Below, in pieces: positions 7,897 through 64,000 of a DNA stretch of 64,000 nucleotides; position 1 is the stretch's first letter; each line of letters begins with the position of its first letter. The DNA comes from Amoebophrya sp. A120 (taxonomy: Eukaryota; Protista; Dinoflagellata), in assembly GCA_905178155.1 (NCBI GenBank), contig CAJINV010000003.1, positions 8,411,444 to 8,475,443 on the forward strand, given 5' to 3'. The position numbers and the translations under genes were made by a program. Below the pieces are notes generated by a model that saw only the letters and a program-made list of their open reading frames with translations, was not told the origin of the DNA and made no database searches.

Positions 7897-10800
7897 TTGG
7901 AGATGCAGATGGAGCAGGATGAAGGAGCCCGTTGGACTTACGGCGAGCAGCGGGTAGCGGACGACCAGGTCCAGGCGTATAAAGATGATACTATCTTCGA
8001 CTACAAGAGCAATAAAATTATGTTGAACAACCACGAGTCTTTGGACTTCGACTTCGTTGCTCAGGTGGACCGGAGTATCGAAACCAGCCTCCTGGCACCT
8101 GATCCCGTGGCCACGCCGATGATGCTGAATATGATGGCAAAGTCGTTGTCCAAGGAGCAAATCGGAGGAGGTCCGCCAGCTCCTTCGGGCGCACAGCAGC
8201 TGCAACAGCTGTCCGCCCTCAGGATGGGATTCGAGGCGAAGATTAAGGAAGTTGAGTTTCTGGAGGAGCAACTGGAGTTGTCAAAGGACCGCGAGGAGGA
8301 GCTCACTCGGGCTCTCACCGTTACAACCGGCGGGACCAATCACCACGCCGCATCAAGTTCTTCCTCCTCGGGCTCGGCACACCACCACCTGCATACAACT
8401 GGGTCCAAAACTCCGTCCGGGGTCGGTGGCGTTTCTGTGTTCGCTCGGGCGCGGAAGTCGCTCACTTCGAAGGAAACCAGTTTGGCCGAAGCCAACCGGT
8501 TTCACCAGCTGTGGGACAGCGCAGAAAGGGAGTTCCGGAAATTGCACGAAGACTTGGAACAAGTTATGCTCGCCATCACGGACAGCCGAGACGTTTTGCT
8601 CGTCGACCAAGACAACTTGGAACTGGTGCGTCTGGGAAAATGCAGCGCGCAGGCGAAGTTGAAGCAGTACGGTCCGGACGGGCACCTGGTCGTTGATGAT
8701 ACTCGAATGAAGAACTCCAAGCAGTCGTCCGCCGCCGACCCAACGAATTTGATGTGGTTGTTGAAAAAACTCCATTCCACTGCCTCTGATCTGAACGTGT
8801 CGCAGAAAGTGCGTTTACTTTTGAGGCATTATCAGATGTGTTACGAGTTTTCCGTGGACGAAATGGAACGCAAAAGCCTGGCTTTACAGGAGAAAAGCAT
8901 CTGGAAAGAAAAAAGGTTGACGGAGAAGGTGCACAATCTGGAAAAGGTACACGATAACGGTAGCGCTTGTAGTACCAGATTGATTTGTAAGTAGGATAGT
9001 ATCCTTGTTGTAGTTCTAGTTAGGTTACTAATACTAGCTAGAGGTAGGCTTCGGATAAATACTTACAAGTATTTCTCTCTCTCTGAAGTTTTCCAACGCG
9101 CCATTCATTGCCTGGTGCCTGCGTGTGGCCGTGCGACACATATGATTTTTCCACACGGAAATAAAACATACCACAGGTCCTCGCCGAAAAAGACGAGCAA
9201 TTCGCCTTAGTCTACAACGAAAACGACTTTCTGAAGAAGAAGGCCCACCCAACCGCAAAGCAGCGTGAAGAAATGCTGAAGCAGAAGCTGCTGCAGTTGG
9301 AGGAAGCAGAGGAAAGACTCCGCGTCTTGGAAGAGATATGGGAGTGTCAGGATCGAAATCGTCACTGTTGAAATAATTTGTGATGCGCAAAACGGATACC
9401 AGTTGGCGCCTAGTTTTCAAGTGGCGCATGACAAATTTTCCTGGCCTCTAAAGCAAGTCTGTCATGCTGTTTCGGGCAAAAGGGCTCCCCTCTGTCATGC
9501 TAATCAGCAACCCAATTCTCGACCCCTGCCAGCACTACAAGAATCTGCCACCCTTGCGTCCTCTGCTATAGTGCGAGTGCCAGTCCCTGAGCTGCATTCT
9601 ATGCAGGGCAAACCATTGTTTCAACTTTGACGATTTCGATCCTGACGCTTCCATAAGAGAGCCGCCTGAAGCGCGAAAAACAGCTCGCGAGCGATCACAT
9701 TCAGCAGGCGTGGCGTAGCAAAAAAGTCAAGGAAATGAAGGAGGATTTGCAGGCGAAGCTGAACCACGCCGAGGAGCTGATCACGCAATACAGTATTAAC
9801 GGAGAACAAGAACACAACTCCAAACCCGACAAAAATCATGGAATCACAACAGCAAACGGAGCCGGTGCCAGCACGTCGTCCCCAGGCCCGAAAAGCCCCT
9901 CCGGAGCCGGGTTATCTACTTCCTTCGGACGGCCGAACAAGGCGAAGGCATCCACGAGCCGCTTCCTGGGCACCACTTCCGCGAGCAGCAGGCAAATCCG
10001 CGAACAGAACGAAAGGCTGGACCAGGAAAATAGAGACTTGCAGAAGAAAAATCACGAACTGCAGGGAAGATTGAAGGAGCAGAGGGAAAACTTCCGGCTG
10101 CAGCTGGAGCAGAAGGACGAGGCCATGGCCTTTTTGAAGAGCCAGGCGGAAAAACTGGAGCGCGACTTGCTCGTGGCACAGACCGAAAACATGCAAGCTC
10201 TCACCGCGATTCGGGAGGAGGCGCTATCAGCGTCGCAATTCCGGAACGATGTCACGCAGAAGGAAAGGGAGCAGAAGCTGCTCGACGAAGCAAAGGAAAA
10301 GTTGGCACAGATGCACGAAGCCCACGTGAAAGAGCTGGAAGATGCGAGGAAGAAACGCCACACGGCCTTTGACGCGGTCTTGGATAAACTTGCGGGGAAC
10401 ATACCGGGGCGGGGAAGCTACTTCACGGAAGAAAGTTACGGAGGAGTAGAGACCACGCTGGAGGAGGTAGAAGAGCAGATGGAACTGATGCGGGATATTA
10501 ACGAGGCAAAGAAGAGTTTGTCGCGCAGCGGTTCCGCCGCTTTCGCAGCCTCTGCCTCGCTTGCACTTGCGTCCAGTTCCGAGACGTTGGCAGGGGCGTC
10601 GCCTTTAGAGCGGCAAAAGCGGAAGAGGGAACAGGAAGAAATCGAAAATGCGTTTTTGGTAAAAAACTCCTCTTCCTCCTCTTCATCTTCCCCTCGTCCA
10701 CAGCAGCCGGCTTCTGCGGTGTTTCAAAGCTCGGGGACCACATTATCAAACACTGCCGCTGATGGTCCTCGTGCCAACAAGTTTGAGAAGACTGAAAGCA

Positions 10801-13800
10801 ACCCTTTTCTCGTCTCCTCCTCGTCTTCCGCAGCCTCCTCTGCAGACGGAGGTGAGGACACAACGACATTTGAAGGTAAAAATGTCGCAGGAGCAGATGC
10901 AGGACGAGGACCACCAGAAGTACCAAAAGATCAGGAACAGGCTCAGACTCAGAGCCTCCAGCAGCTGTCCCAGCGTCAGTATTCAAAAGAGGAACAGCTG
11001 CAGATACTTGACGACGCGAATCGCGACCCGGAACTTCAGCCGATTATTGCGAAGCTGGAGCAGATGCTCGGTCGCAAGGAACTGATTTGGAAAAAGCGGA
11101 TCGAGAGGCAGAAGATCTCTTACGAGAAGCAAAAGCACGAGCTGCAGGTCCTGCGCGACCAGGACTTTCTGCTGATGGAAAAGGAGAAAGAAGATTTGCG
11201 GCACATGGAGCAGAAGAATTACGAGGCTCTTTTCGCGGAAAAAGAAATGCTTGCGCAGGAAAAGAAAGCGCTGGAGGAAAAACTGAGAAAAGCGGAAGAC
11301 GAAATAAACGTCGAGCTGAAGGACAAGGACAAGCGCGAGGCGCTGGAATTCGAAATGCAGCGGTTGAGGGACGACGTGAAAGTGTTACAGGCAGAGAAAC
11401 AACAAATCTCCAAGGAGAGAGACACCCTGTTGAAGGATGTCGGCGCAATGTCCAGCCAAATCACGAGCAGCAAGACGGAGAAAGACTTGGAGATCGCGAA
11501 GGAGGCCGCGGAAAAGGCGATACTGGAAGAAAGGATCACCACGCTGCAGAAGGAACTCGAGCAGCAGTTCAGCAGGCACTTATCCGAAGTCGAGGACTTC
11601 AAGACTCGACAGAGAGCGGGAGAGACAAAGATCGAAAAGGCGAACATGGTATCAACTGTAAAAATGTCTGGGTCTGGAAGATTCTGACACTTGTCATGCA
11701 CGTTTTGCATGAGCCATGATGTCTGTGATGCATACCCTAGCAATACAGATTCTTGAAGATGCGTATTCCGCATGACAAACGCCTTCTCAGCGTAGCAAAG
11801 ATTGCATTTCCTTTGGTACTCATGCAATACAGATTTTTTTGGAATCCAAATGCAGCATCACAAGTTGCATTCTTCCAGACCCAGACATTTTTACATTTGA
11901 TACATGGAAAAAGCGGACTACGAACAGAGGGTGGAGTCGAAGCTGCAATCTTTTCTCCAACAGCAGAAGGAGGAGATATCCTGTGCAAAAGTGTCGTACT
12001 CGTAGTAATCGCAACCATGCATTACAAATTTTTTTCTTAAGGTAAATCCGCATGACAAATTTTATTTCTCATGCTGAGGAAATTTCAATTTGTCATGCAT
12101 TTATACGAGTGCGATACTTTTGCAGTGCATAGGGGAAGAAAAAACACGAAAAGGAAGTGACGGAGCTCGGGAAAAAACTGGAGTTCGAAAAGCAAGAGAA
12201 CGAAAAGCTCAGAAACCAGATGAAGGATCTGGACGAAAACGTGTCCGTATGACAGTGCACAACTACTCCCCCTTGTTCCCCCTCATTTGTCATGCAAAAT
12301 CCCAAAGCCAGCCGCTGCCTTGTGGCACCGGGAGCGGGTGTCCACTACATGATGATGATGATGATGATGATGGCACTGCTTGCATCACGAAGCCCAACTA
12401 GAAGTACTACACTAAGCGCATAAATTTGTCCTGCACAGGCTCCATGATGTGTGCTGGTGTTTGTATTGCTGTTGATGCCATACAAATGAGGAGGAGGGGG
12501 AGTTCTTGTGCACTCTCATAGTCCGCTACCGTGGAAGCGATGACCGCTGGCGCGTCGGAGATGTCGACCCTGAGCGAGAAGCTCCACGAGCTGGAGCAGG
12601 CGAACCGAAAGCAATATGAGGAGGTGCTGGCGCTGCGCAAGGAGAAAAACGAACTGCAGGAGAAGTTCCACTTTCAGACGTCCAAGCTAGAAAAATCCGG
12701 CAAAGCCGGGTGGCGCGTTTGCGACATCTTGGCGAGAATCGTCTCCGAAGTCACCACTTTCGACGACTTGTCCTATGTGCAGCGCGGCGGCTCGTCCTCG
12801 CTGAAGGACCACAGGAACCCCGCCGCCGGGGCACCGATGCTCTTTTACGCCGACCGGGACGCGGACGAGGAAGAGGGTTCTTTACCACTGCACCCGTCGA
12901 AGGCTCTACTGCGAAAGTTGAAGGAGTGGCACGAAGTGAGCGAGCAGCAGGACGAGCAGGAGCGCGGTGGAGGTGATTCTGATTCGGCGACATTCAATAC
13001 GGTGAAACACGACCACGAAGAGGAGAAAAACGAGCTGCAACGGCAAAGTTCTCTGCTCCACGCAATCGAAGGGCATGCGTCGGAACTGCATAAATCCGAG
13101 GTGGCGGGCGTGATTCGGGCGAAGTTGGCAGAGTTTGAGGAACTGTCGAAGTACATTCGCAGGCAGCAGAAACGGGCACAGGAGATTAGCGTACGCGTAG
13201 CATCTTCGCAGCCGACTGGCGGGTCTTGCTGGGAGGGTCGTCGTGCTCCTTCAGCAGCGCCAGCGAGTGGAAACAAAGAAGGTGCTCCTGAAAGTAACGC
13301 ACTTGGTCTCCTGGAGGAACAGGAAGTAGAGAGAGACAAGGATGTTGGCAGCACCAATCTGAAGAACCGCGACAGAATGGACTCTGCGGAGCAGGAGTTA
13401 GCTCTCGTCGCGTCCCTTTTGGATCGCACACTTAGCCTCGCAGCTGGAGACAACTTCAACTATCTGAATCCGAGAAGCGCGGGGGCGGGCAGTCCCTCAC
13501 GACCACCAGGTGCCTTCCCAGCAACCTCGAGTAGTACAACGACCCACAACGAGGGAATCCAAATTTTGCAGCAGATCTTTGAGAAGTTCCGAACGGAGGT
13601 GCAGCAGTTGGACGAGAAACTGCGAGACCGGGAGTTGGAAAAAGGGTTTCTCGGCACGGAGGCGAGCCAGCTGAAGGTCCAGCTGGAGAACCAAAACCAC
13701 ACGTTTCTCGCGTTCCAGCACAGCTTGAAGGAGGAAAAGGCGCTGCGGCAAGCAGCGGACGACAGAATCTCTGCCGTTTTGGCCGCTCAACAGAAGGTGC

Positions 13801-16800
13801 AGGAGGCCGTGGCAGAGTTCGGAAGCAATGTCGCGGCTGAACTCGAGAAGCAGTCCGACTGCGTTTCAGCGCTCCCAGAAGTTGCGATAGAAGAAATCGA
13901 ACGGGAGCTAGAAGCAGCTGCTAAGAGAACTTCTAGACCAGGAAATAAAGAGCCTGGAAGTAGTACGTCTACGTCTTCGGCAAATAAAGAGAAGCCGAAG
14001 CCGATCGAAGAACTCTACCCCTCGCTCTTTGGTTCGCCACGGAAAAAGACCGCGGACGATCACGATCAACATGACTCGCAGGAGGCGGGAAAGAGCAAAG
14101 CTGCCAAAGCAGGCACAACTACTTCTGCAGCGGGGACGACCGACAAGCTGCCAGTCCAGGATGAAGTTCTTGACGCGCGCGCTCTCATGTCGGAGTCTCT
14201 CGTTGCCGCAGACGGTTTTCTCGCCACGACGCTGCAGCCGATGAAGATAAGCTTCAACACGCTGCGCGATCTGCATCTGCACGAGCGAACAAAGATGACG
14301 CTGATCCTTGAGAAACAGGCAAAGCAGATCGCGGAAAATGAGCAGAAGGAGAGTGACGCGGTGCGAGAGAACACGGAACTCCTCGCGGAGAATCGGAGAC
14401 TCCGCAACGACGCGGAGATGAAAAAGCTGCAGTTTGACCAGGTTTTGGCGGAAAAGGCGAAGGAGGACGAGCAGCAGCAGCTTTTCCAGATCGAGCAACA
14501 GTACACGCTGCGGGGAAACCTCCGCGAGAAGATGTCGGACATCGAGAAGCTGACCCAACGGGTGGCGGTATCGTGAGGAAAAATCTCCCCTCCCCATACC
14601 AAAAGGGGGCACTTCTGAAAATTTGTGATGCTGATTTGTGGCCACAAATCGTCTCTGTATTGCAAGAAGGCAAGTCCAGAGACTCCGCCACCTTTTGCAG
14701 GCGGTTTGTGATGCTGCTAAGCCTACAGGCGGGATCTCTGTCTTGCTAAGTAGAGCCTACATCAGAACACCCCCGCCCGTGCTTTGTATCTGCCTGCATT
14801 CCTCTACTGCAAGACAAAGCTGATATCTGTACACAGTTCCCGCATCACAGATTTCGACTTTGATATGGGGAGGGGGGATTTTTCATTTTGATATGCGGAG
14901 CAGGAGAAGGAGAAGTATCTGTTGCAAACCAAGATCGACGAGTTTGAGGACGAGAAAACGGATTTGGTGCGGTTCCACGAACGGGAAATCCACGCGTGGA
15001 AAGCGGCGAAGGACGATCTGGCGGAGGAGCAGAGGGAGTCCAAGCAGCAGTTGCAGGACATCATCCAGCGGTTAGAAGAAGAGAAACAACAGAACAAAAC
15101 CTTGTTCGACCTGAAGGTGAAGGAGTTCGAAAAGCAGCTAGAGGCAGAGAAGGAGCAGCAGAAGAAGCAGCAGGAGGTGTTTCAGGACCAGCAGAAGGAA
15201 CTGAAGGAACTCTACAACCGAGAAAAGCAATATGGAAGCGTCAGGTTTGAAATCGACAAAGTTGAAATGACTTGTAATGCATAAAGTGCATGACCCGAGG
15301 TACGTGTGTTGCAGAGCAGGCACGTGAGGCCGATTGTAGGCCTCTTTGGGGTTGCAGCTCGAGCTGCTAAAGTAGCATGAGAAAATCGCCCTTCTTTGCC
15401 TAAACAGTATGACAAACTGGATTCAGGGACCACCGAAATTTGTCATGCGCCACTTGGAAACTGGGTTCCAACTGGCATCCATTTTATGCATGACACTTTG
15501 TCGATTTCGATCCTGACGCTTCCATAAGCAAGTCGCAACCACTTCGGTCACGGAAAACAAGAAAATCCTGGACGAGTTGACGAACGAACTGGATTTGCTG
15601 ACCGCGCAGAACACGAGTCTGACGAAGGAACACGAGAAGGAACGCAACCTCTTGCGAGAGGAAATCGCGAAGCTGAAAGCCGACAACCGCATTCTGGCGG
15701 CAAAGTTCGAGGAACTACTGAGCTTCTCCGGTGCGATGGAGAAAAAAAACCGCAACTTGGTGCTGGGGTTGGCGAAAACAGAAAAGGACCACAGCGGGCT
15801 GGTCGAAGACTACTCGGTCTTGTTGCAAGTTGCAGAGCTATTACAATGAAAAATGCCCCCTCCCCATATCAAAACGGAAATCTGTGATGCAGATTTGTGG
15901 TCACAAATCAGCTTTGTGATGCTAGAAGGCAAAAGATGCGGACTGTAGTGCTGTCTAGCGTGGGAAAGCCTTGCAGCTCCAGGATGACAGGAGGCAACTG
16001 GAAGTGGGAAACAGCATGACAGATTACCTGCAATTTAGGCCACAGCTTCGTCTCTTGGCCTTCTAGCAATACAGGTCGATTTGTGTACTCAAATACAGCA
16101 TCACAAGTTCGCGCATCTTCCGTTTCCGATATGGGGTGGGGGCTTTTTTCACTTTGATAAGAGCAGAGCGCGGGCGGGGCGGGGAGAAGGGCTGGAGGAG
16201 GTCGTAGACGCTCCGGTAGCAGTTGTAGACCGTTCTACCCACCTCGCAGTTCCGCGACGCGAAGTGCCTCTGCCTCTGCGCAGGCGCACCAGCACTCCAG
16301 TAATAAGCGCGGCTCCTCAACAACGCCCTCGTCGAGCGCATCGCGTTCGCCGGGGGGCGTGGGCACCAGCAGGAGTACTAGAAGAGTCTTGCCTACTCGT
16401 GGTGGGGCAACTACATCGCTGCATGATCGCGGAAGCGTAAGCTTGACGCCGAGCAGAGCTGCAGCTGCCAGAGGACAGCATCGTGCTCACGACCCTGATG
16501 GAAATCCGCCACGACGTGATGCGCTCTCCCGAGGGCGTGACTTTGTATTCGAAGGTGTGCTGGAGAAGCCGACAAGCGCAGATCCGGAAGTGCAGCGAAT
16601 TCTGGATCGTGTTGACGTATTTCTCACTAACAAAGCACGGGAACGACGCGGATCGCCGCCCGCTGGTGTGGTCGCCACGCTCTCATCTCGAGACAGAATG
16701 TGGCGAGCAGAAAAAGCATCATCCTCAACATCTCCAAGCACGACGCGACGGGTTCTGGTGGACGATTTGCAACCGAGCGGGGCGCCTTTGAGAGCTGCGG

Positions 16801-44279: not shown

Positions 44280-45094
44280 GCTTAAAACAGGGGGGTGGCT
44301 GCTTAGTCAGCGGGGTGGCGCATGGCGAGCGCCAAAGCCACGCTGCGCAGCAATGAGGCGGGCTTGCCGCTGGCACCTCCGGGGCGTTCGAGCTTCGCGC
44401 GAGCGGGATGGCGCGGAACACACGGCAACACACCGCACAAGCAGGGCGACAAAGGCTCGCGCCGTCTAGGGGCGGGGGGAGCGCAAAAACGTCACACGCA
44501 AAGCCGGGAATCCAGGGCGGCGCCTCGCGGCGGCCATCGGCGCACGCCAACCCGGATCGGGGTTTGGAATGCGCGCGGCCGGGCCGCCCGCAAGTATCAC
44601 CGAACTCCGGGGCGTGGTCAAACAGGCCCGCGGGGGCCACCGCTTTGCATTTTTCTATAATGTGCGAAGGGCCGCGGCGGCGGAGTTGAGCGACTCCGGC
44701 AAAGGGGAAAGGGTCGCAAGACCCTAGGCAGGGCGCGTTGTGTCATTGCTTTCTGCAGATTGCAGAGCCTTGCCGAGGCCCCCCTATGGTATTGTGGGGA
44801 ATGCGCCCGGCGCTCCTGTTATAGGGTGGCGAAAACCGCCCGTACTAGGGCGGCTCGGACGGGCGGCGGCAAAAGCGTGCGCATTTATGGCGCTTCAAAC
44901 CAGCAGGGCCTTTCCGGGGCTCGTATCGGCCGCCCGCCGCGATTCCGCAAACGCAGAGCCCCGCGCAGTTCAGGAATGGCCGGCGCGATCACGATTCTTT
45001 TACGTGCTATAACGTGGCAACTTTCGGCAACAAACGAGGCAGGGCATACGATTATGGGGCATTTAGAGGCCAGCCCGCACCCTATATCTGGCTG

Positions 45095-52020: not shown

Positions 52021-52104
52021 GTAGGTAGAGATTTTATACAGCGTTAGAAAGACTACATTACTTTTGTAGAAATAATAAAAATAATGTAGTGTAGAAATAA
52101 TAAA

Positions 52105-53590: not shown

Positions 53591-55024
53591 AAGCTCATGA
53601 TAAAAAGTTTACTTGAATCGACTCCAGTTCTTGAAAAATAACCAGCTGTCAACTTCAAAATAGCAGTACGTGGAAAATAGAACAACCGGTAAGCGCTTTA
53701 CAGTTTTGACTTTTTACAATTTCAATTGCAACAGAGGTCCGCCACAAATTAGAATTTCAGATTTTACAATACTAGACTGCTTACTTCTGGATTTAACACA
53801 AACAACTTCAGAATTTACAACTTTCGACTCACCTACTTGGATAGGATGTGTACAGAAATTTTACTTCCCCGATCCACAGATACGCAGCGACTGTATCCAT
53901 TTGTGAAAGTGGAAAAGATGCTGCTGTTCTGTTTTTGGGGTCGTAGCTACGTCAGCTCCATCTCGTAGAAAAACTTTTTTGGATTTCTCGTATGTAGCAG
54001 CTCGCTAGCGTCAGAAAGAGCAAAGTTCTCGCTCATTGGGATAAAAACAATTCGTAGTCAGACCAATATTTCTATTCGTCGCACTACGTACAAAATGCAT
54101 TACAAATTACCACAGAAAAGCACACGAAAACTTCACACCGAGAAGAACCCTGAACCGAAGCCAATTGCTGCCTCGACGAGAAAACAGGAATTTTGTTTTT
54201 TGTTACCTCTATAGTGTGAAAGCAATAAGAGGACGCCAAGAAGGGCGGGAGCAGAAGTATTAACTTGCGGGAAGCAAGTGTTTTCTACGATTGTTCGGAG
54301 ATATCGGCTAAAAGAGATTTGTATGGAATTTTCAAAAATAAGTCTCAAGTTCCGGTATAGTGTCGCCTACCTCAGTTCGGTGCAGCTCTTTTCTGTTTTT
54401 TTGAAGTCGTAAAAGACCACAGTGACTCTAGCAAAGAAGATACTCTGTCGCTTTCGTCTTTCATCATTTTGGTTTATTCTTTAACGATTTTCGACACCGC
54501 CAGCGCTGGATGGTATCTTGTTTGTTAAAGAGTAACTCCTTTTTTTTCTTCAAGTCGTGTAGTCGTTCTTCGTGTCGAGCCAAGCTCTTCAAGAAAGACT
54601 ATTGCCGCGCTCGTATGTCTTCATCGTCGGGGATTTTTTTTGGGAAATAGAAAGCATTTTTTCACAAAAGTAAAATGCTCTATGCCTGTTGCTTCGGTGT
54701 TGATCCTTGCTCTCTGATCGTTGCCTCCAGGCGCCCTATGGTCGTTGCGATCGGTGTATTCTTCTACCCCTCAATACTCTCCCCGCGCCGAAGTTTCTAA
54801 TGCACAGCTTTCACCGAGTTCAGTTTGTTGCTTTACTACTACTACTACTACTAACTCCTACGTAGATCCCCCTGTTGTTAATTACTACTAGTACTACTTT
54901 AGATTCATTTCCCGCGTTATATTTATTTACTAGAATTAGAACCCTCAGCGCTAATACTGTATGTAAGTAGAGCAGCCCTCCCGCCACTCCCGCATATCGC
55001 TTTGATTGCGTAGCATCCCAAGAA

Positions 55025-58000
55025 ATGGCCGCGGCCGCGAAGGGCAAGTCGGCCGCGAAGATGAACACGTCGCGCGTATCAAAAGGAAGCGGCCCCCTTC
55101 CCCATATCGAAAACGACATTTGTGATGCGTTATTTGAGTACACTAATAAATAGACTTGTAGTGCTAGAAGGCCAAGAGCCGCAGTTGTGGCCTCGCTTGC
55201 AGGCCATTTGTCATGCTGTTTCCTGCTTCCAGCTGCCTCCTGTCATGCTGAAGATGCAAGGCTTCCCCACGCCACCCAGCACTACAGTCCCCATCTTTTA
55301 CCTTCTAGCGTGAAGCTGCATCACAGATTTCCGTTTTGATATGGGGAGGGGGGCGCTTTCTTTGTGATACAGCGAGCCGGGCGATACGCTCCTGCCGACA
55401 CTATCGCAGGAGGCGCAGATGAAGAAGAGTAACGCAGGCAAGAAGACTATCCTATGTAAAAACGTCCCCACCCCATAGCTGTCATGCAAATGTGCAGTGA
55501 CAGGAAGATTTGTAATGCGCATCTCCATGAGAGGCACTTCCAGTCGTGTTTTGGAATTTGTAATGCTGTAAACAGGATGAGAAGCTCGCTTTCTCATGCG
55601 GCTGCCCTTGCTAAACAGCACTACGCTACAGATAGAATCTTGTCATGCAAAACTCCCAAAACTTAGAAATTTGTGTTGCAGATTTACCAATTTCACTATG
55701 GGGTGGGGACGTTTTTACACAGGATAAAGATGAACAAGAAAGATGAAGATATCAATCTGGACCTGGACGTATACGACAGCGACTTCGGGCTATACGACTC
55801 GGCTCCGGGCGACGATGGCGGCAAGGCTAGCGGTGGAAGATCGGCGCCGAAGAACAAAAAGCCGGCAATACGCAAGGCAAAAGTATCGCACTAGTACTAG
55901 TATGCGCCGCATATACAAAGACTCACTTCGCTCGGCATGACAAATGGACTTTGTGATGCTGCTTTAGCTTTGGACTCGGGGGAACGTTGCGACTTGTGAT
56001 GCATATCGCTATCAGCAAGAACGAGCGCGCGTGCCCACGCGATACTTTTCCAAGGCATAGACAAAGAAGAAAAACCAATCCTCCACATCATCTCACAAGA
56101 GCTTTAACGGAAGACAGCAAGCCATGAAGATGGTGAAGGGGCGGTCACAGGAAAGCTCGAGGAAGAAACAACTCCGGACGGAGCCCCTCGTTTTCCTGTC
56201 GGAGCAGCTGTACTGCGAGGAGGTCTCCGACGAGGAGGAGGAGGGCGTGGGCATCGAGTTTCAGTATGTTGGGCAAAAGTATCGTGCTCTTATTGCAGTC
56301 ATACACTACAGAAAATTTCGTTCTATATATAAGGTCTTAATCCGCATTACAAATCGTGTTTCGTCTCATGCTGAGAGAATTTGTAATGCAGTTATGCGAG
56401 TGCGATACTTTTACACAGGATATTCAGACGTCGGAGGCAATGTCCCGCATGGTCGACCGCTTCGTCGGCGGTAAGGACAAGGGCCGAAAGGCGATCGATA
56501 TCTTGCAGCAGAGCGACCGCGGCGAGAAGTGCGCGGACTGGTTCATGAATCTGTTCACCAACAAGGAAAACCGAACTATTGCAAACCCGACCTTGCTAGA
56601 GTGGTGCCAGTGGGATGTTTTCAACGTGAACAACGACCCACACCAGAACCGGCCGCTGAACATCGTGCTGTCCTGTAAGTACTGTGACGCAGGAACCGCA
56701 CACGACAAAAGGCTGAGAAACTTGCAAAAGCGCAACGCGGCCTCAAGCTTCGGCAACGGGACGTTTGTAGCGCTGCAGGAGGCCCGGGACTTCCAGCGGA
56801 AGTCTGCTTGCTTGTCTATCCTGAGTAAAAACGTCCCCACACCAGAGGCAAGTTGGCGACTTAGCAACACAAATCCAGAAGTTTTGGGAGCCACGCATGA
56901 CAAGTTGCAGTCCGTAGTGTAGTGCATGTTAGCAAGGAAAACTGCATCACAAATCCATCTTCTCATCCTGTTTGCAGCGTTACAAATTTCAAAACGCGAC
57001 TGGTAATGCCTCTCATGGAGATGCGCATTACAAGTCTTCCTGTCATCGCAAATCTGCATGACAACTCTGGGGTGGGGACATTTTTCCTCAGGATATTTTC
57101 CAAGATGCTGGAGTATCAAGTGTAAAAATGTCTGGGTCTGGAAGTAGAATGCAGCTTGTGATGCTGCATTTGGATTCCAGAAAAATCTGTATTGCGTGAG
57201 TACCAAAAGGAATGCAAGTTTTTCTACGCGAAGAGGGCATTTGTCATGCGGAATAGGCATCAAGAAGGTCTCAAAAAATCTGTGAATCACGGACATCAGG
57301 GCTCATGCAAAACGTGCATGACAAGTGTCAGAATCTTTCAGACCCAGACACTTTTACAATCCATATGGAGCACGAGGGGCCTGTGCACCAGAAAGCAAAG
57401 GCGAACATCCAGAACAAGAACAAGATTCCAACCTTCAAACGTCCAGTCGTCGAGGACAAAAAGCGCGCGAAAGCGCGCATTATGGCCCGGCACGCCTTGA
57501 TCAACCTGAAACAGGCGGGGTCGCATCCTTCCTGGAAAATGCATGTCGAGGCGACCTTATCCTATGGAAAAACGTCCCCACACCCCAGGACTGTCATGCG
57601 AATCTACACGCCCCGAGTGTTTCTCATGCGCAGTCCCCTGCGAAGCATTTCTAGCTGCCGTCTTGCACTCTGTCATGCTACAATTGGGGAGCGGGGTGGG
57701 TGCCTACGTTTTTCCTCCTCATAGACCTTCGACGAAGCTGTGGGCAAGGACCTGTACGGCACGTCAGTCGGCTGGAGCGAGTATAGTGCCTTGAAATCTT
57801 ATGACAACGAAACTCCGCGCCGGAGTCACGTCCGAGGCTTTTTGTGAGGCCTGTGGGATCTGTAATGCGGATTTGCCTCAAGAAGACCTCTTGAGGGATT
57901 TGTCTCAAGAAAACTTGTTGAGGCAAATCCGCATTACAGATTCCATTTCTAATGCTGAAGTGCCAAAGTTCTTTCTTGAGACAATCCGCAAATGGAATTC

Positions 58001-61000
58001 CTCAGCATTAGAAAGAGGATCTGTAGTGCGGATTTGCCTCGAGAAAAGTGCCGAGCTCTTAATTTTTTTATTTTTGGAGGCAAGTCCGCAAATGGAATTG
58101 CTCAGCATTGCAAATGGAGTCTGTAGTTCGAAGTTGCCTCAAGAAGACTTCTTGAGGGATTTGTTACAAAGAAATCCCTCAAGCACAGACGTTTTGTGAG
58201 GCTACAATGTAGCCTCGCAAAACGTCTGTGCTGCGACTGTGGCGCGAGAGTTCGTTTTCATAAAACCACGGCGTGCGCAGTGTGCCGAGACGAGGTCTAT
58301 GGCATTCTCAACCGTTACACTCTCAGCTGTTGCTCGGATTTGTGACGCAAGAAGCGAAACAGTAAAAGGGGCAAGCTTGCAGCTTTTGCATCACAAACTC
58401 GGCAAAAACTTTTTTTGATAGGCGCCGTTTAGCCCTTTGGGATTTGTCATGCGAGATAGGTTGATCGCCTGGTGGCCCATGGCAATTCTGCATGACAAAT
58501 CCAAGTAACAGCTGAGAGAGTAACGGTTGAGAATGCCATAAGGCCGACGCGGCAATTGCAGGCACCGCGGCGCTATCCTGTGCAAAAGCATCGTGCTCGT
58601 AGTAAATGCAAACATGCATTACAAATCTTGCTCTTTAGGTAAATCCGCATTACAAATTTCATTTCTCATGCTGAGGACATATGTAATGCATTTTTACGAG
58701 TGCGCGTGCGATGCTTTTGCATTCCATGGGCGCCGTATCTGCTGCAGGCGGACGGCAAAAATGGGAAGTTGTCCGCCTTCCTGTTTCTCGACGTCAGGTA
58801 CCAAGTGCAAATGTGTTAGTCTGGGTCTGGAACATTGCGGCCATGTTGCTCCTGGGTCGTGCAAAAGTGAGAATATTTGCAGTATGGATGTCAATAGATG
58901 CCCACCCTTGGCCAAGTTGGCAGGATGTTTCTCATGCAGGAGAGGCGTGATAGATAGGAGCATCAGCGTCACAGAATCTGTCATGCTCGGCGACGGGGGT
59001 CATGGAGCATCTGCGTGACAAGTCTCGTAATCTTCCAGACATATTTGCATTTGATATGAGGGGGAAAAGCCAGTGGGTCCACATTGGATCCGCCACTCTA
59101 GCGAAGACAAAGAGTGCCTACGACACGTATGAAGCCATCTACATATCGATTGCAAAAGTGTCTGGGTCTGGAAGGATCAAACTTGTAATGCTATTTCCGG
59201 ACTCTAAAAAATGTGTTGCGTGACAGGCAATAGGAGTCCAGTTTTTGCCACGTGGAGAGGGCATTTCTGATGCAGGATATGCATCAAGAAGCACTCAGAA
59301 AATCAAAAGTGTAATGCTAGGGCATGCATCACACACAGCCGCAAGGGGTCACGTCAGATGTGCATGACAAATCTTCCAATCTTCCAGACCCAGACACTTT
59401 CGCAATTCACACTACAAGATCCTCTACGACTGCGGCATCTCATGCGAAGAGATCGGCTGCCTCATCATGGACGGCGCTGCCGAGCTCGGCCTGGCGCATG
59501 CCGACAAGAAGATTACCATCAACACGAAGGCGCTGAGAAAGCTCGGGTTTTCTGTCGGGGCGAACGACGATCCGAACTCGAAGAGTTACGTTTTGCCGGT
59601 AATTAGGGCGATAGAAGACAAGGAGAACGACCCGGAGGATAAGGCGGTCGTCCCCCCAATTTCGGAGAAAGACTCGGAGCACCTGAAGAGCCTGTTGGAG
59701 TTTTTTCAGAAGCACAACCCGCACGTCATTGGTATCTATTGCAACTGCCACAAGTTGGACAGAATACTCGAGCCGGTGCTCCGGAAGTCCGAATTGGTGC
59801 AGGCGGTGCAGAAGGAGATGATGTCGCTGAACGGTCTCTGTAAAGGCGGAAAGGGGTCCAAAACATTATCCGCAGCGGGGAAGCTGGTCGTGGCGATGTC
59901 CACCTTCGTGGATGGCCCAATGGCCACGGTGTCGCAGCTACCATGTGCAAAAATGTCTGAATCTGGAAAAAATGGAATTTGTGATGCTGACTGTCGGCGA
60001 TGCAAACTCGCAAAGTCCTGTATTGCATGACCAACAAACGGAGCTCAGTTTTTTGCTATTCTGAGAAGGCATTTCTCATGCAGTATAGGCATGGGAAAGC
60101 CTTCACAAAATCTGTATTGCTACAGCATGCATCTTTACCGACATTGAAGGTCATGTAAAATTTGCATGACAAACTCCCCCAAAGGGGGAGGCAAAGTGTG
60201 CTGCACTTCTGTTTAGCATGACAAACTCCCCCAGACCCAGACATATTTGCAGTTGGTACCAGTTCGAGGTGATTTTCATGCGGTGGCTGTACCTCTTGAC
60301 GCCCATCAAGTCCGTGCGCACCCATTTGGCGAGCATCCTCCTCGCCGCGACCCGGATTGCAAACCCCGCGTACACCGGCAACGCTACAACTTCGCAACAA
60401 TGGGAGGAGAAACTGAATTTCTTCGGGCAGGTCCACATAATGGCTTTCATCAGCAGTCTCGCGGACTTCCTGGGGCAGTACCGAAAGATCACGGCGGTGG
60501 CAGAGTCGGAGGAACTGAGCCTGCAGGAGTCGGAAAGCAAGGCCAAGCAGCTGGCCGACAAAATACCAAGCTTCCTCCGGGACATGACGGCCCATTGGGC
60601 GGATTTGGAAGCAAAATTTATCCCGGAGAACAAACGGAAACTGAAGCCGAAAGCGCGGAAGATGGTCAAAGAGCACAAGCACGTCGTAGATCTGGAGATA
60701 GAGGCCAACCCTAACCAAACGGCCGGCGTCCTCCATGTCCGGGATAACGAGGGCGAAAGAGATACCTTCTGGAAAAACGTCTCCACCCCACCCCATCTTC
60801 CTTTTCTGAAGAACGCCTCTTTGTGTTTTATTTAATATGTATAATGGAAACTTGTCATGCGCTATGCATACACAGAAATGTGGTTAGTATGGGTACTAGC
60901 ACTACACACACTGCAGACGAAAACTTGTCATGCGCAGATCGCTTTTTAATGCGCATCATACATATTGGGATACCAAGAGAGCGCCTCAGTATCTATGGGT

Positions 61001-63865
61001 TGGGGATCGACGTTTTTACTCAGAATAAAGGACGACGCGAAGCGCGTGCACGTGAAGTGGTCCCATAAAGAGTTCCTGTCGGCGCACGAGGATCTGACGG
61101 AGCTCATCAGCAGCATGCGGACCGGTATCAACAAGCGGTACGGTGGAAGCTCATTCTTCCAAGTGATGGCAAACGTCCAGGCGCAGCTGCACAAACTGGC
61201 GGCCGCGGACGATGACGAAACGAAAACCGCCCTCGACCACCTGGCGGTGCATGTGCTGGGCGCCGCGAGGGACGCGGGAAACAAGATGAGCAAAAAGTAC
61301 AAGTCGTGCCGCGAGGACTTGGAAGATGACTACAAACTGTTACTCCAGCAGCTCGACGACGCGGGGAGCAAACCGGCGAACCGGTCTTCCCTGGTATCAA
61401 ATACAAAAGTGTCTGGGTCTGGAAGGTGGGGTTTTGTAATGCCAGCTTTGAACTCATCTAACAAAACCTGTATTGCATCACCAGCGAGAGAGGTATATTT
61501 TGCGCCACGCGGGGCGGGCATTTGTCATGCGGAGTAGGCATCGGGAAGCCCTGCAGAAATCTTTGATGCTAGGCCGTGCATTACAGACGTTCTGGACCAT
61601 GCAAAATAGGCATGACAGACCCGCTCTCGATCCGCTTGCACTTGGCGAACTTGGCCAGCTCCGCCAGGTATCAAGTGCAAAAGCGTCTGGGTCTGACCAG
61701 ACGCTTTTGCACTTGATACCTGGCGGAGCTGGTCAAGTTCGCCGAGTACAAGCGGATCGAGAACACGTTCGTGAACTTCTTCTACATCGCGACAAGGGCG
61801 GTGGTATCCTGTGCAAAAGTATCGCGCTCGTGCAAATGCAAGTTTAGCATTACAAATCTTGTTTCCAAGGCAAAGCTGCGCTACAAATTTTATTTCTCAT
61901 GCTGAGGAAATTTGTAATGCATTTCCACGGGTGCGATACTTTTGCAATGCATAGGTGGCTTCGTCTGCAACGGCGGAGAGGTACCAGAAGTACCTCGGAC
62001 AGGTGCGGAATCACATCGAAAAACGCCCCCACCCCCTGCCCCTTGGGCCCAGCCCAACCCTGCCCCTTGGGCCCAGCCCCACCCCGCCCCTTGGGCCCAG
62101 CCCCACCCTGCCCCTTGGGCCAAGCCCTACCCTGCCCCTTGGGCCCAGCCCCACCCCGCCCCTTGGGCCCAGCCCCACCCTGCCCCTTGGGCCCACCCAG
62201 GCCCCGCCCCTCCCCTTCGGCCCAGCCCCTGCCCATGGGGCCCAGTGGCGCGGGGTTTTGTCGTGCCCCAATCAGCGTGGCGCCCTCCCTAGGGTTGTGA
62301 CTTTGCTGGGTTTGCTTCCCAAGCAGGATCGCACTACCATACGGGGCCAAACTGGTCACGCGCATGCCACGGCCAGAGTTTAGGCCGGTTCATAGATAGA
62401 TTTGTCTAGCAAATTCCCCATCGTGGCTATGGGGCGGGGGCGTTTTTGCTCAGGATATGCGCAATCGGTACACTGAGAAGGAGATCGAGGCGCACTTCGT
62501 CGCCTCGTATATCGGCAAGGGCGACCGCGAAACGCTGCAGCGGCTCACGGTCAAGGTCGCCGAGGCATATGTGGCCGAGAGGCCCCGGCGGCTCGTCAGG
62601 ACGAGGCAGCGGCCGTCCGGGCTGACGTACGTGGTACGAGTTTCTTTGTTTTTCGAAGCTATGCGTAGTATGATAAATTGCGGTCTAGCACTACCATAGG
62701 TTGGCTCTTTCTGCGTATCTAGGTTTCGGAATATATTGAAGCGCACACTGGTACATAGGCCCACTCCTGGCGTAAAAAAATGCGAATGTTATTGCGTCTA
62801 CTCGCGGCCAGCCCCTCACTGAGCCTCAACCGCCCTCAAAAATACGTCTCTCGCAGGCCCGAATGGGAAAGGACGAGAAATTTCGCAAAACCTACGGAAT
62901 TGCCGCGAAGGAGGTGATACGCATTGCAAATATTTCTGGGCCTGGAAATTTGTCATGCCGGGTAGCGTGTCATCAGGGGGCCACAACAAGTGCTGGCTCA
63001 GCATGACAAGTTTTTGTGTTGCCTATTCCGCATTACAGGGCTTCTAGTTGTTGCCTATTCTGCATGGAAAGCTGCGCTTCTGCGTGGCAGAAAAGTGGGG
63101 CTCTTGGGTAACGTGCATGACAGATTTGCATGACAAACATGCATTCTTCCAGACCCAGACATATTTGCATTGGATAGGTGATTAAGATGTCGAGCTCGCT
63201 GCAGTTGGAGGAGCTCCCCAACGACAACGCGCCGGTGCCGCTGGGTGAATATGGTTCCAAGGACAAGCAGAGCGATCCGGGGGTGGAGGATAGTGACGTG
63301 CAGGTGATCTCTAGCAAGAAAGAGGAAGACAACAGGGACCAGAAAGTACCGGGGCAGCGGGAGACGGGGGCGTCCGCGGACGTTTTATCAAGTGCAAATG
63401 TGCCTGAGTCTGGATGAAAGCGAGATTCGAACTTGTCATGCCATTTTTCCAAGGTCCTGCTCCAAAAGGCCTGGGGTGCCGGGGCCACTTTGTGCTGCTT
63501 ATTCTGCTTCCAGACTTAGACACCTTCGCATCCCATACGCTGACATGCAGGACGTGGAGGACGAGGATGAGATAATGGAGGACGCGCATTCCCAGCCAGT
63601 ACAGCACGAGGCCGAGGAAGGCTCTTCGAGCTCGTCGTCCGTGGACGAAAAGTTTGTGGACGCGATGGAGACGCTGATGGAAAAATACTCTGAGGAAAAA
63701 CAGCAGCATGACACGCACACCACAGAGACCACGTTGGCGTGGGAGGGGGATTTGTACACGAGCCAGATGCGCGAAATCCTGGACAGGGTTGGTATGTACG
63801 ACCACTGTGGGCCGGATCGTATCAAGTTCGTCGTCAGGAAGAGGAAGAACAAGAACAAGGCGTGA
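55025..63865 (+). CDS. hAT-superfamily DDE transposase (TTF/BED-like zinc finger, ZMYM1/ZNF862-like architecture), 1199 aa, 21 exons
   Basis: Spliced CDS is 3600 nt with no internal stop. Zn finger CKYC...HEGPVH; D1 in YLLQADG (58751); D2 in [12 protein letters not shown] (59470); YCNCHKL (CxxH); MRWL; C-terminal [10 protein letters not shown]...VRNRY (E at 61976). Introns: 19 TIR elements + GT-AG 62634-62856. Confidence 0.85.
55077..55369. mobile_element. Introner family D
   Basis: TSD GCGCG/CAGCG; frame kept. Confidence 0.85.
55448..55726. mobile_element. Introner family F, 279 bp, opposite orientation to 49966 and 56817
   Basis: TSD AAGAC/AAGAT. Confidence 0.92.
55869..56059. mobile_element. 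Introner family B
   Basis: TSD GGCAA/GACAA. Confidence 0.8.
56265..56422. mobile_element. Introner family B
   Basis: TSD TTCAG/TTCAG. Confidence 0.9.
56817..57095. mobile_element. Introner family F, 279 bp
   Basis: TSD TTGTC/TTTTC. Confidence 0.9.
57114..57365. mobile_element. Introner family A, reverse orientation of 11650-11902
   Basis: TSD TGGAG/TGGAG. Confidence 0.92.
57558..57723. mobile_element. Introner family F (short)
   Basis: TSD GACCT/GACCT. Confidence 0.88.
57800..58262. mobile_element. Introner family H (TATGAnAACGAA), interior homologous to the 52.1-53.6 kb array
   Basis: TIR TATGACAACGAAACTCCGCGCC / GGCGCGAGAGTTCGTTTTCATA; frame kept. Confidence 0.8.
58298..58540. mobile_element. 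Introner family G
   Basis: TSD AGGTC/AGGCC; 20-bp TIR. Confidence 0.9.
58574..58728. mobile_element. Introner family B
   Basis: TSD GGCGC/GGCGC. Confidence 0.88.
58799..59056. mobile_element. Introner family A
   Basis: TSD TCAGG/TGAGG. Confidence 0.85.
59144..59411. mobile_element. Introner family A
   Basis: TSD CTACA/CTACA. Confidence 0.88.
59939..60258. mobile_element. Introner family A (TAC...GTA termini)
   Basis: TSD GCAGC/CCAGT. Confidence 0.82.
60763..61027. mobile_element. Introner family F (diverged)
   Basis: TSD AGAGA/AAGGA; frame kept. Confidence 0.78.
61395..61718. mobile_element. Introner family A with internal fold-back duplication
   Basis: TSD CCTGG/CCTGG. Confidence 0.88.
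61805..61953. mobile_element. Introner family B
   Basis: TSD GGTGG/GGTGG. Confidence 0.92.
62009..62457. mobile_element. Introner family F expanded by a 24-bp C-rich tandem repeat (62030-62245)
   Basis: TSD TGCGG/TGCGC; unit CCCTGCCCCTTGGGCCCAGCCCCA, ~7 copies. Confidence 0.85.
62918..63176. mobile_element. Introner family A
   Basis: TSD GGTGA/GGTGA. Confidence 0.88.
63386..63537. mobile_element. Introner family A (short)
   Basis: TSD CGTTT/CGCTG; frame kept. Confidence 0.8.
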
Positions 63866-64000
63866 GAGCAAATAGGTGCACTACCATCGTGATTGGCATT
63901 TTTGTCCTAGATAAGACTGAAAGTAGAAAAACAACCACCAACGACCTAAGGCTGAAAGTAGCAAAGCACGAAAGTAGAAAACGGACCATCACCCACCGCC

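What the first reader, a model, noticed from the sequence alone, without database searches (positions are those of the whole stretch)
9337..63537. Shared internal octamer GCATNACA / TGTNATGC in nearly all introner families, scarce in exons and GT-AG introns
Seen: regardless of TIR family, interiors carry several copies in both orientations, plus the variant GCAATACA/TGTATTGC. Example in element 11650: TGTCATGC 11692, TGTGATGC 11724, GCAATACA 11740, GCATGACA 11770, GCAATACA 11824, GCATCACA 11855. A copy usually lies just inside each TIR, and the motif stays conserved while the surrounding sequence diverges. The canonical introns (8947-9176, 18511-18762, 19263-19551, 62634-62856) appear to lack it. 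Inference: it is a protein-binding code, either hAT-type subterminal sites for the transposase zinc finger or a mark that recruits the non-canonical splicing machinery. Its loss in the most decayed yet frame-preserving introns (35072, 35415) slightly favours a transposition role.
Basis: partly seen in the sequence, partly recalled or inferred. Interest (0 to 1): 0.8.

Follow-up and report, generated by a model that had tools for sequence, protein, structure and literature searches.

The report
Helically spaced code inside transposon introns
The many unrelated-looking transposon-derived introns of this marine parasite (Amoebophrya) all carry the same short motif in copies spaced by whole and half turns of the DNA helix, which likely makes it a docking code for the transposase that spreads them, and a candidate hAT-like transposase gene, reported as absent from this strain, lies in the same window.

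Summary
Observation confirmed and extended. The window is Amoebophrya A120 DNA. GCATNACA occurs 162 times against 7.9 expected. Density is 10.7/kb in TIR introns, 0.16/kb in exons, and 0 in 4 GT-AG introns. In 351 elements from a second assembly, 338 carry it.

The elements are one superfamily: TAT-N7-AAA ends, 5-bp target duplication, removed from RNA as element plus 5 nt. The site is about AAAYY-TGT[CGA]ATGC, not just inside the TIR but 30-50 bp in. It is conserved (core rate 0.16x on internal branches, free position neutral), strand-symmetric in transcripts, and shows no RNA covariation. It is helically phased: direct pairs at 31-33 bp in 14 of 18 clusters (null 1.3), best period 10.4-10.6 bp. 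That points to a double-stranded-DNA protein site.

Best reading (0.6): subterminal transposase-binding repeats. A spliced hAT-like gene with a DDE-like triad (55025-63866) is a candidate, binding untested. One element without an exact site is still cut out precisely. Against: all 144 confident coding-region introns keep at least one site, so a host DNA-level splicing mark stays open (0.22). I found no description in print, and the scan had not reported it before.

The parts
55025..63866 (+). Spliced gene for a hAT-like transposase candidate (P0002): 19 TAT...ATA introners and one GT-AG intron; putative zinc finger W213/W216, C237/C240, H289/H294; D400, D461, C551xxH554, W624, E937
   Evidence: Removing each element plus 5 nt gives an open 1,199-codon frame matching P0002 at all but 3 junction residues and the C-terminal end; RNA contigs; atlas neighbours are hAT/DUF4371 families; positions; motif equivalence recalled
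7909..19770 (+). Host gene with 9 introners and 3 GT-AG introns
49044..52020 (+). Short host gene with 9 introners
   Evidence: Open frame after element+5 nt removal
11650..11902 (.).
9337..9655 (.). Introner F6, 4 strict sites
11977..12131 (.). Introner F3, 3 strict sites
12248..12520 (.). Introner F4, 1 strict site
14569..14893 (.). Introner F5, 3 strict sites
15231..15526 (.). Introner F6, 3 strict sites
15839..16159 (.). Introner F5, 4 strict sites
16877..17200 (.). Introner F1, 3 strict sites
19013..19181 (.). Introner F3, 2 strict sites
55077..55369 (.). Introner, 4 strict sites; RNA joint skips length+5
55448..55726 (.). Introner F2, six sites all in the TGT..GC orientation
   Evidence: frame only, no joint shown
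55869..56059 (.). Introner F3, 3 strict sites
   Evidence: frame only
56265..56422 (.). Introner F3, 2 strict sites
   Evidence: frame only
56817..57095 (.). Introner F2 in the opposite orientation, strict sites all GC..ACA; removed from RNA
57114..57365 (.). Introner F1, 3 strict sites; removed from RNA
57558..57723 (.). Introner F2, sites TGT..GC only; RNA joint skips length+5
57800..58262 (.). Introner whose interior is the 52100-53600 array unit; RNA joint skips length+5
58298..58540 (.). Introner F7, 3 strict sites; RNA joint
58574..58728 (.). Introner F3, 3 strict sites; RNA joint
58799..59056 (.). Introner F1, 1 strict site; removal shown by RNA contig length
59144..59411 (.). Introner F1, 4 strict sites; removal shown by RNA contig length
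59939..60258 (.). Introner F1, 3 strict sites; removed from RNA
60763..61027 (.). Introner F2, 2 strict sites; removed from RNA
61395..61718 (.). Introner F1, 4 strict sites; orthologous copy in L048 differs at 3 places, the only one inside a site being the free position
61805..61953 (.). Introner F3, 2 strict sites
62009..62457 (.). Introner with F2-like TIRs, interior largely a 24-bp tandem repeat, no exact site (two 1-mismatch remnants); precisely removed from RNA
   Evidence: 362 nt predicted, 362 nt seen
62918..63176 (.). Introner F1, 5 strict sites; RNA joint
63386..63537 (.). Introner, 1 strict site; RNA joint
49222..51999 (.). Nine introners: 49222-49445 (1 strict site), 49460-49636 (2), 49683-49931 (2), 49966-50244 (4), 50340-50643 (3), 50709-51037 (3), 51161-51420 (0), 51446-51743 (3), 51761-51999 (4)
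31041..35994 (.). Introners in a minus-strand gene region: 31041-31301 (4 strict sites), 31856-32071 (2), 32107-32426 (0), 33029-33214 (2), 33876-34505 (2), 35730-35994 (2), plus decayed 32497-32772 (2), 35072-35340 and 35415-35595 (no exact internal site)
   Evidence: no RNA cover
2650..2858 (.). Introner, 2 strict sites
37222..38781 (.). Two introner copies (37222-37467, 3 sites; 38535-38781, 2 sites) inside a 1.27-kb duplication; one site is lost in the second copy
42394..42704 (.). Introner F2-like, 2 strict sites
52100..53600 (.). Intergenic foldback and tandem array with 21 strict sites; opposite-orientation neighbours mostly 41 bp apart, off the element rule
   Evidence: little RNA cover
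8947..9176 (+). GT-AG intron, no site
18511..18762 (+). GT-AG intron, no site
19263..19551 (+). GT-AG intron, no site
62634..62856 (+). GT-AG intron, no site; RNA joint

Best explanation
The octamer is the conserved core of a roughly 13-bp site that recurs in helical phase inside one superfamily of short TIR elements with 5-bp target duplications, and it is likely a subterminal binding repeat read on double-stranded DNA by the zinc fingers of a multimeric transposase, possibly the hAT-like protein encoded at 55025-63866. Shown: enrichment, conservation, an empty zone up to about 30 bp from each end, 31-33-bp direct pairs, half-turn offset of opposite-orientation sites, strand symmetry, 5-bp duplication, removal of element plus 5 nt from RNA. 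Inferred: that a protein binds it on DNA (about 0.85); that the protein is the mobilising transposase, so that only copies with a well-phased array found new families (about 0.7 given binding); that this transposase is hAT-type and not integrase/Ginger-type (about 0.65 given that); that P0002 itself is the active enzyme (about 0.35). Splicing would then depend on the ends of the element and not on the octamer.
For: Phasing: 14 of 18 informative whole-element clusters have a same-orientation pair at 31-33 bp (null mean 1.3; best window anywhere, null maximum 8); 57 of 94 interior clusters (null 9.0); best period 10.4-10.6 bp; phase score 0.45 against 0.00 +/- 0.08, and 0.38 without the 30-34-bp pairs. 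Spacers of different TIR classes are 0.32 identical against 0.26 shuffled (examples). In the largest family 16 of 120 copies shift the end-to-site distance by 9-10 bp, one turn. Core changes run at 0.16 of the interior rate on internal branches but 0.40-0.57 on terminal branches, with the free position near neutral; this is not a CpG effect. Terminal rate is the same in coding-region introns (0.45) and other copies (0.40), and family-matched site counts do not differ (-0.09, p = 0.63). Indels after insertion are not avoided inside the pairs. No strand bias: 310 against 279 sites, 15 against 17 one-orientation introns. 62009-62457 has no exact site and is removed precisely. A 319-bp TIR element of another kind (GG ends, 9-bp duplication, L058:2013-2331) interrupts a long open frame and has no site. 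5-bp duplication in 104 of 116 elements picked by TIR alone. hAT families with 5-bp duplications exist (hAT5; PMC12730594). Hermes zinc fingers bind phased subterminal repeats (PMC10368747). P0002 has hAT/DUF4371 neighbours at 0.91-0.93. Many private insertions have the form 5-mer, one base, 5-mer (23 of 32 six-base insertions, 0.2 expected), as excision scars of 5-bp-duplication elements would.
Against: All 144 confident coding-region introns of the second assembly keep at least one strict site, while 13 of 207 other elements have none (Fisher p = 0.001). Terminal-branch conservation is still substantial (0.43 overall; the G of TGC only 0.14), which selection after insertion would also give. 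Copies with a mutated duplication show an excess at core sites of 0.013 against 0.017 elsewhere, too noisy to decide. Phasing to the terminus beyond the first site was not significant (p = 0.83 and 0.058), and the intergenic array uses 41 bp for opposite sites. P0002 matches no Pfam family at E < 5 and no solved structure by sequence; its only real homologue is one partial paralogue, and no TIRs were found around it. An 8-13-bp site is long for one hAT zinc finger (Hermes reads 4 bp). One A120 family with TA termini and a 5-bp duplication was labelled Ginger in Gozashti 2025, so a non-hAT enzyme is possible. The middle base of the scars is random, not the complement of its neighbour as hairpin opening would give (expectation recalled).
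Confidence: 0.6

Rival explanations
1. The site is read on DNA by a host factor, possibly a domesticated hAT-derived protein, that marks these introns in chromatin and recruits the U1-less splicing machinery during transcription. Elements keep the array because only spliceable insertions survive.
For: 0 of 144 confident coding-region introns lack a strict site against 13 of 207 others (p = 0.001). Terminal-branch rate is 0.43, and 0.14 at one position. Phasing and strand symmetry fit any double-stranded-DNA binder. P0002 is single-copy-like, full of introns, and 6 of 7 differences from its orthologue are synonymous, as for a host gene. U1 snRNA was not found in A120 (PMC7789003).
Against: 62009-62457 is removed without an exact site. 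No difference in core rate or family-matched site count between coding-region and other copies. Spacing is not protected from indels in individual copies. Dense sites also occur in an intergenic array. A motif-free TIR element of another kind interrupts a long frame (no RNA evidence).
Confidence: 0.22
2. The octamer is an RNA signal: a single-stranded binding site for a splicing protein, or complementary copies that pair to fold the intron and bring its ends together.
For: Predicted pairing probability is higher at site bases (0.77 against 0.59), and 39% of site bases pair with another site in 60 folded introns. Outermost opposite sites matched at the free position in 0.64 against 0.34 expected, on about 3.5 weighted clusters. 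The largest family is mildly orientation-biased (36 against 19, p = 0.03).
Against: No compensation at the free position across 62 opposite-site pairs: 12 joint changes against 14.2 expected, 517 Watson-Crick cells against 499, while TIR position 13 does covary (10 against 4.3). Introns with only one orientation, of either kind, are spliced in the same gene (57558 and 56817). A 10.4-10.6-bp period has no meaning for a single strand.
Confidence: 0.07
3. The motif and its spacing are leftovers of one ancestral element with internal repeats, or a by-product of DNA bending or nucleosome preference, without a sequence-specific reader.
For: All classes share TAT-N7-AAA ends, so common descent is plausible. 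Spacers keep a weak shared bias (0.32 against 0.26; CA at +16/17). A-rich flanks repeat in phase.
Against: Position-specific conservation with a neutral base in the middle. Interiors fall into 121 non-matching clusters once sites are masked, with sites at different offsets.
Confidence: 0.06

Closest known systems
Introner elements / non-canonical introns of Amoebophrya A120 (Farhat et al. 2021, PMC7789003; Gozashti et al. 2025, PMC12130899)
   Same: Same elements: inverted repeats starting TAT, seven variable bases, then AAA; direct repeats at the borders; many families; TIR DNA class
   Different: The text I read describes no shared internal motif or spacing. It gives direct repeats of 3-5 nt, reports no transposase in A120 and rules out general transposase-mediated mobilisation. 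Here the duplication is uniformly 5 bp and a hAT-like gene is present. Most of the 40 A120 rows read in Gozashti's table are TIR DNA of unknown superfamily.
Subterminal repeats of hAT transposons (Hermes, Ac, Tol2; Lannes et al. 2023, PMC10368747)
   Same: Short repeats in both orientations inside the TIRs, asymmetric between the ends, exact phasing important, read by N-terminal zinc fingers of a multimeric transposase
   Different: Hermes repeats are 4 bp and start directly behind the TIR; here the site is 8-13 bp, starts 30-50 bp in, pairs at three helical turns, and is shared by at least eight TIR classes. Binding is not shown, and the elements are also introns.
hAT5 (hAT families with 5-bp duplications, inside the Blackjack lineage; PMC12730594)
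   Same: 5-bp target duplication; P0002's nearest atlas clusters are DUF4371/FAM200/C17orf113-type hAT proteins
   Different: No autonomous element with TIRs found; no alignment or tree placing P0002 in hAT5; termini of hAT5 not compared
MITE-derived non-canonical introns of Fritillaria and Polarella/Symbiodinium introners (review PMC11282704, passages)
   Same: TIR elements turned into introns with non-GT-AG borders
   Different: No shared phased internal code was mentioned in the passages read; primary papers not read

Membership tests
Amoebophrya A120 introner elements | Inverted repeats beginning TAT, seven variable bases, then at least three A | tested here: met
   Terminal consensus of 351 elements against PMC7789003
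Amoebophrya A120 introner elements | Removed from mRNA although borders are non-canonical | tested here: met
   16 of 19 elements of the 55025-63866 gene absent from RNA contigs that also lack the GT-AG intron (one sample)
Non-autonomous TIR transposon (MITE) | TIRs, fixed-length target duplication, no coding capacity, many copies | tested here: met
   5-bp duplication in 104 of 116; median 261 bp; families of up to 127 copies
Transposase-binding subterminal repeat (hAT type) | Short repeats in both orientations inside the TIRs at non-random positions | tested here: met
Transposase-binding subterminal repeat (hAT type) | Bound by the transposase's N-terminal zinc finger | not testable with these tools
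   Needs EMSA, SELEX or ChIP
Transposase-binding subterminal repeat (hAT type) | Required for transposition, dispensable for the host | tested here: inconclusive
   Internal 0.16 against terminal 0.43; site-free spliced intron; but 0 of 144 coding-region introns lack it
Transposase-binding subterminal repeat (hAT type) | Present at the ends of the autonomous element | tested here: inconclusive
   No TIR pair found around the hAT-like gene within the window; the window ends 134 bp after its stop
hAT transposase (P0002) | Detectable homology to hAT families | tested here: inconclusive
   Atlas 0.91-0.93 to Dimer_Tnp_hAT/DUF4371 clusters, 9 of 10 named hits in one clan (one source); no Pfam hit; no PDB sequence hit
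hAT transposase (P0002) | DDE triad with CxxH and conserved W in the insertion domain | tested here: inconclusive
   D400, D461, C551xxH554, W624, E937 in the expected order; equivalence judged by eye from recalled motifs, no alignment
hAT transposase (P0002) | N-terminal BED zinc finger | tested here: not met
   No zf-BED match; a W..W-CxxC-H..H finger is present and the atlas points to the C17orf113 type
hAT transposase (P0002) | RNase H-like fold with helical insertion | tested here: inconclusive
   Single-sequence model, pLDDT 36; no Foldseek match at E < 0.001
hAT superfamily elements | 8-bp target duplication (5 bp in hAT5) | tested here: met
   5 bp, fitting hAT5 only; 5 bp is not unique to hAT
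RNA structural or single-strand splicing signal | Strand preference in the transcript, or compensatory base changes | tested here: not met
   no Rfam match in the window

The most novel reading that the evidence does not exclude
The phased octamer array is a DNA-level intron-definition code: a hAT-derived protein captured by the host binds it on the double helix and directs removal of tens of thousands of orientation-independent, non-GT-AG introns in an organism that seems to lack U1 snRNA, so that one code serves both the spread and the splicing of the elements.
Probability: 0.2. Interest if true: 0.93.

Novelty: new variant of a known kind. Interest (0 to 1): 0.68.

Why it matters
About 29,850 introners in 1,954 families were counted in A120, and the genome paper left both their mobilisation and their splicing unexplained, arguing that no transposase exists in this strain (PMC7789003). 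One shared, conserved, helically phased site collapses these families into a single system with one likely reader. A spliced hAT-like gene offers a protein to test, and duplication-plus-one-base scars suggest that excision happens. Both open questions become directly testable: bind the site, mutate the site. If the host reads the site for splicing, it would be a new way of defining introns.

Tried and rejected
No whole genome is held for the window, and the second assembly's records are not held for genome search, so orthologous copies could not be collected at scale: only L048 and L014/L015 overlapped the window, too few changes for statistics. The TIR pattern found nothing in viral contigs. 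RNA laid on 29501-44500 gave no spliced cover, so 35072, 35415 and 32107 are frame-only. Raw-read runs X8 and X9 matched almost nothing but one TIR. A first strand assignment by open frame alone did not separate real from frameshifted joins and was replaced by a codon model (178 real against 6-7 control at the threshold used). Phasing to the terminus, suggested by the raw histogram, failed beyond the first site once families were weighted; only site-to-site phasing is claimed. The structure prediction was uninformative (pLDDT 36); Hermes chains appeared only among insignificant Foldseek rows, which I do not count. Homology searches returned only P0002, one partial paralogue and a low-complexity false hit. 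Pfam found nothing for the single exons of the gene. RNA stems between opposite sites were rejected for lack of covariation. The 52100-53600 array as the end of an autonomous element was considered; no TIR was found. No complex prediction was run. Earlier scan notes: nothing on this genome or sequence; five notes on TIR introns of other genomes did not mention the motif.
Full report
Setting. A protein search with one exon returned a 100% match to an annotated protein of Amoebophrya sp. A120, P0002. Farhat et al. 2021 (PMC7789003; I saw the abstract, passages, sections 12 and 16 and a text search of the supplement, but no figures) describe tens of thousands of non-canonical introns in this strain with inverted repeats starting TAT. 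The second organism is a close relative: L048 matches 61118-61710 at 98.3%. Class F1 is over-represented by design (187 of 398 elements), so tests were weighted or resampled by cluster.

The observation. GCATNACA occurs 162 times against 7.9 expected and GCAATACA 17 times against 1.6. In two fully resolved genes the density is 79 sites in 7,358 bp of TIR introns, 2 in 12,215 bp of exons and 0 in 994 bp of GT-AG introns. In the second assembly 351 elements were called (1 call in shuffled against 118 in real sequence for the 25 longest loci). Of these, 338 carry the octamer, at 15.4/kb, against 0.28/kb in DNA not homologous to elements and 1.1/kb in 37 predicted GT-AG introns. All eight TIR classes have it. 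Of 31 whole-element clusters, 27 have a site (25 plus two long elements seen). The full site is about AAAYY-TGT[C/G/A]ATGC-W, with variants TGT[A/G]TTGC and TCTCATGC.

What the elements are. They share ends of the form TAT-N7-AAA and a 5-bp target duplication (104 of 116 elements picked on TIR alone; no target sequence preference). Removing element plus 5 nt opens the frame for 19 of 19 elements in the gene at 55025-63866, 9 of 9 at 7909-19770 and 9 of 9 at 49044-52020. Across all 398 elements, 178 joins pass a codon-model threshold that 6-7 frameshifted controls pass. RNA contigs, which also lack the GT-AG intron, show precise removal of 16 of the 19 elements in the first gene. All seven joints examined skip length plus 5 and are compatible with one register, the cut one base before TAT and four bases after ATA.

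Geometry. Only 2 of 796 ends have a site 14-29 nt from the terminus, and 582 have the first site at 30-50 nt. For spacing, 388 of 398 elements (350 bp or shorter) were used. Same-orientation pairs fall at 31-33 bp in 223 of 388 elements and in 14 of 18 informative clusters (null mean 1.3; best 3-bp window anywhere, null maximum 8). Same-orientation pairs closer than 27 bp are depleted (0.12 against 0.56 per element). Opposite-orientation pairs sit half a turn off. The best period over all pairs is 10.4-10.6 bp, with or without the 30-34-bp pairs. Spacers between paired sites are nearly unrelated across classes (0.32 against 0.26). Against a simple picture: phasing to the terminus beyond the first site is not significant, and the intergenic array at 52100-53600 mostly uses 41 bp for opposite sites.

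Selection. Fifteen families (256 of 398 elements; clusters with at least five members near the median length) were aligned and changes mapped by parsimony. Core positions change at 0.16 of the interior rate on internal branches and 0.40-0.57 on terminal branches, while the free position runs at 0.74-0.94 on terminal and 1.41 on internal branches. CpG context does not explain this. The G of TGC is the most fixed base (0 internal changes, terminal rate 0.14 against 0.96). Stronger constraint on lineages that left descendants is what selection on mobility predicts, but terminal branches include unsampled history, so the test does not exclude selection after insertion. Coding-region and other copies have the same core ratio (0.45 and 0.40) and the same family-matched site count (p = 0.63). 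Yet none of 144 confident coding-region introns lacks a strict site while 13 of 207 other elements do (p = 0.001; some of the 13 may be false calls or unrecognised introns). This is the main result against my reading.

DNA or RNA. In transcript orientation there are 310 TGT..GC and 279 GC..ACA sites (p = 0.22), and 15 against 17 introns with one orientation only. Both kinds are spliced in one gene (57558 and 56817). Folding predicts more pairing at sites (0.77 against 0.59), as any inverted copies would give, but the free position shows no compensation in 62 opposite pairs (12 joint changes, 14.2 expected), whereas a TIR position does. Element 62009-62457 has no exact site and only two one-mismatch remnants, and the RNA contig has exactly the 362 nt expected if it is removed. 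Of three other clear TIR elements with different ends, none has a site; one, with a 9-bp duplication, interrupts frames of 238 and 228 codons (no RNA evidence).

A candidate reader. P0002 has, in order, a W..W-CxxC-H..H finger, D400, D461, CxxH at 551-554, RW at 623-624 and E937. Their equivalence to hAT motifs is recalled, not aligned. The atlas places it next to Dimer_Tnp_hAT, DUF4371, FAM200 and C17orf113 clusters (0.91-0.93, one source). Pfam, PDB sequence search and a low-confidence fold gave nothing significant. It has one partial paralogue in A120 (47% over 90 aa), and 6 of 7 differences from its orthologue are synonymous. hAT families with 5-bp duplications are known (PMC12730594, passages), and Hermes zinc fingers read subterminal repeats whose exact phasing matters (PMC10368747, passages). 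Gozashti et al. 2025 (PMC12130899; passages and rows 1-40 of 58 A120 rows of supplementary file 8; files 13-14 not searched) leave most families as TIR DNA of unknown kind and label one with TA termini and a 5-bp duplication as Ginger, so an integrase-like enzyme is a live alternative. Insertions inside element copies are dominated by a duplicated 2-, 3- or 5-mer around one random base (82 of 104 three-base, 17 of 26 four-base, 23 of 32 six-base events; 20.7, 1.4 and 0.2 expected), which I read as likely excision or break-repair scars.

Mechanism and verdict. Most likely (0.6) a multimeric transposase holds the two TAT ends in its catalytic core while its zinc fingers dock on sites that face the same side of the helix, so that new families arise only from templates with a phased array; splicing would use the ends. 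A host DNA-binding factor marking introns (0.22), an RNA signal (0.07) and functionless inheritance (0.06) are the rivals. Subterminal repeats and Amoebophrya introners are both known. A single phased site shared across the families was not found in print by searches for Amoebophrya with introner and inverted repeats, with non-canonical introns and splicing, with transposase and hAT (no paper), introner with subterminal or transposase binding, non-canonical introns with MITE and internal motif, or GCATGACA with transposon (no paper). Roy et al. 2023 and Henriet et al. 2019 were seen only as references, the review PMC11282704 as passages, and supplementary figures such as Farhat's S19-S25 could not be seen and may bear on this. 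Novelty: new variant of a known kind. Interest 0.68.

Noticed in passing
Element families in L001-L157 and window; example L014:1138-1490 against window 51673-52020: Insertions in individual copies are mostly +3, +4 and +6 with the form X-one base-X (X = 2, 3 or 5 nt), far above chance; the middle base is random. Possible excision or staggered-break scars. The +3 and +6 forms would keep reading frames in exons and could feed the fast protein evolution reported for this genus.
   Followed up: partly
window 55077-63537 RNA joints: All seven joints examined fit one register: the intron starts one base before TAT and ends four bases after ATA, so a G at that position gives a GTAT donor. Many predicted GT-AG introns of the second assembly also start GTAT and a few carry the octamer, so some may be old introners.
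   Followed up: partly
window 55025-63866: Expressed, spliced hAT-like transposase gene with a DDE-like triad in a strain reported to have no transposase; a partial paralogue (P0003) is annotated elsewhere in the same assembly.
   Followed up: partly
L058:2013-2331: 319-bp TIR element with GG ends and a 9-bp duplication (Mutator-like by recalled criteria) inside a long open frame, without the octamer; probably a second kind of non-canonical intron.
   Followed up: partly
L028:10531-11384 and L066:9640-9912: Two further TIR elements without the octamer and without a clear 5-bp duplication.
   Followed up: no
window 24150-29460 (-), flanks to about 30300: Long ORFs of 1,444 and 368 aa with an integrase zinc-binding domain: an LTR retrotransposon-like element.
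   Followed up: no
window 30350-36140 (-): Gene with Asp-box-like repeats (label recalled) interrupted by about 12 introners, several decayed; frame open from 36140 to 33575, no RNA cover in the runs laid.
   Followed up: partly
window 42649-44306 (-): ORFs with weak LtrA (low temperature requirement A) matches, below the Pfam cut-off.
   Followed up: no
window 36319-37071, 39981-40315, 45271-46993, 52593-52762: Tandem arrays with periods 16, 13, 109, 31 and 39 bp. The two 31-bp arrays are not made of the octamer but share the three-turn period.
   Followed up: no
window 61625-61762: The right TIR of element 61395 forms a long palindrome with a duplicated piece of the next exon, as if the end had been inverted and copied into the intron.
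   Followed up: no
window 37016-39593: 1.27-kb tandem duplication (89.7% identical) that carries an introner in each copy.
   Followed up: partly
window 57101-57113: 13-nt micro-exon between two introners, confirmed by RNA contigs.
   Followed up: yes
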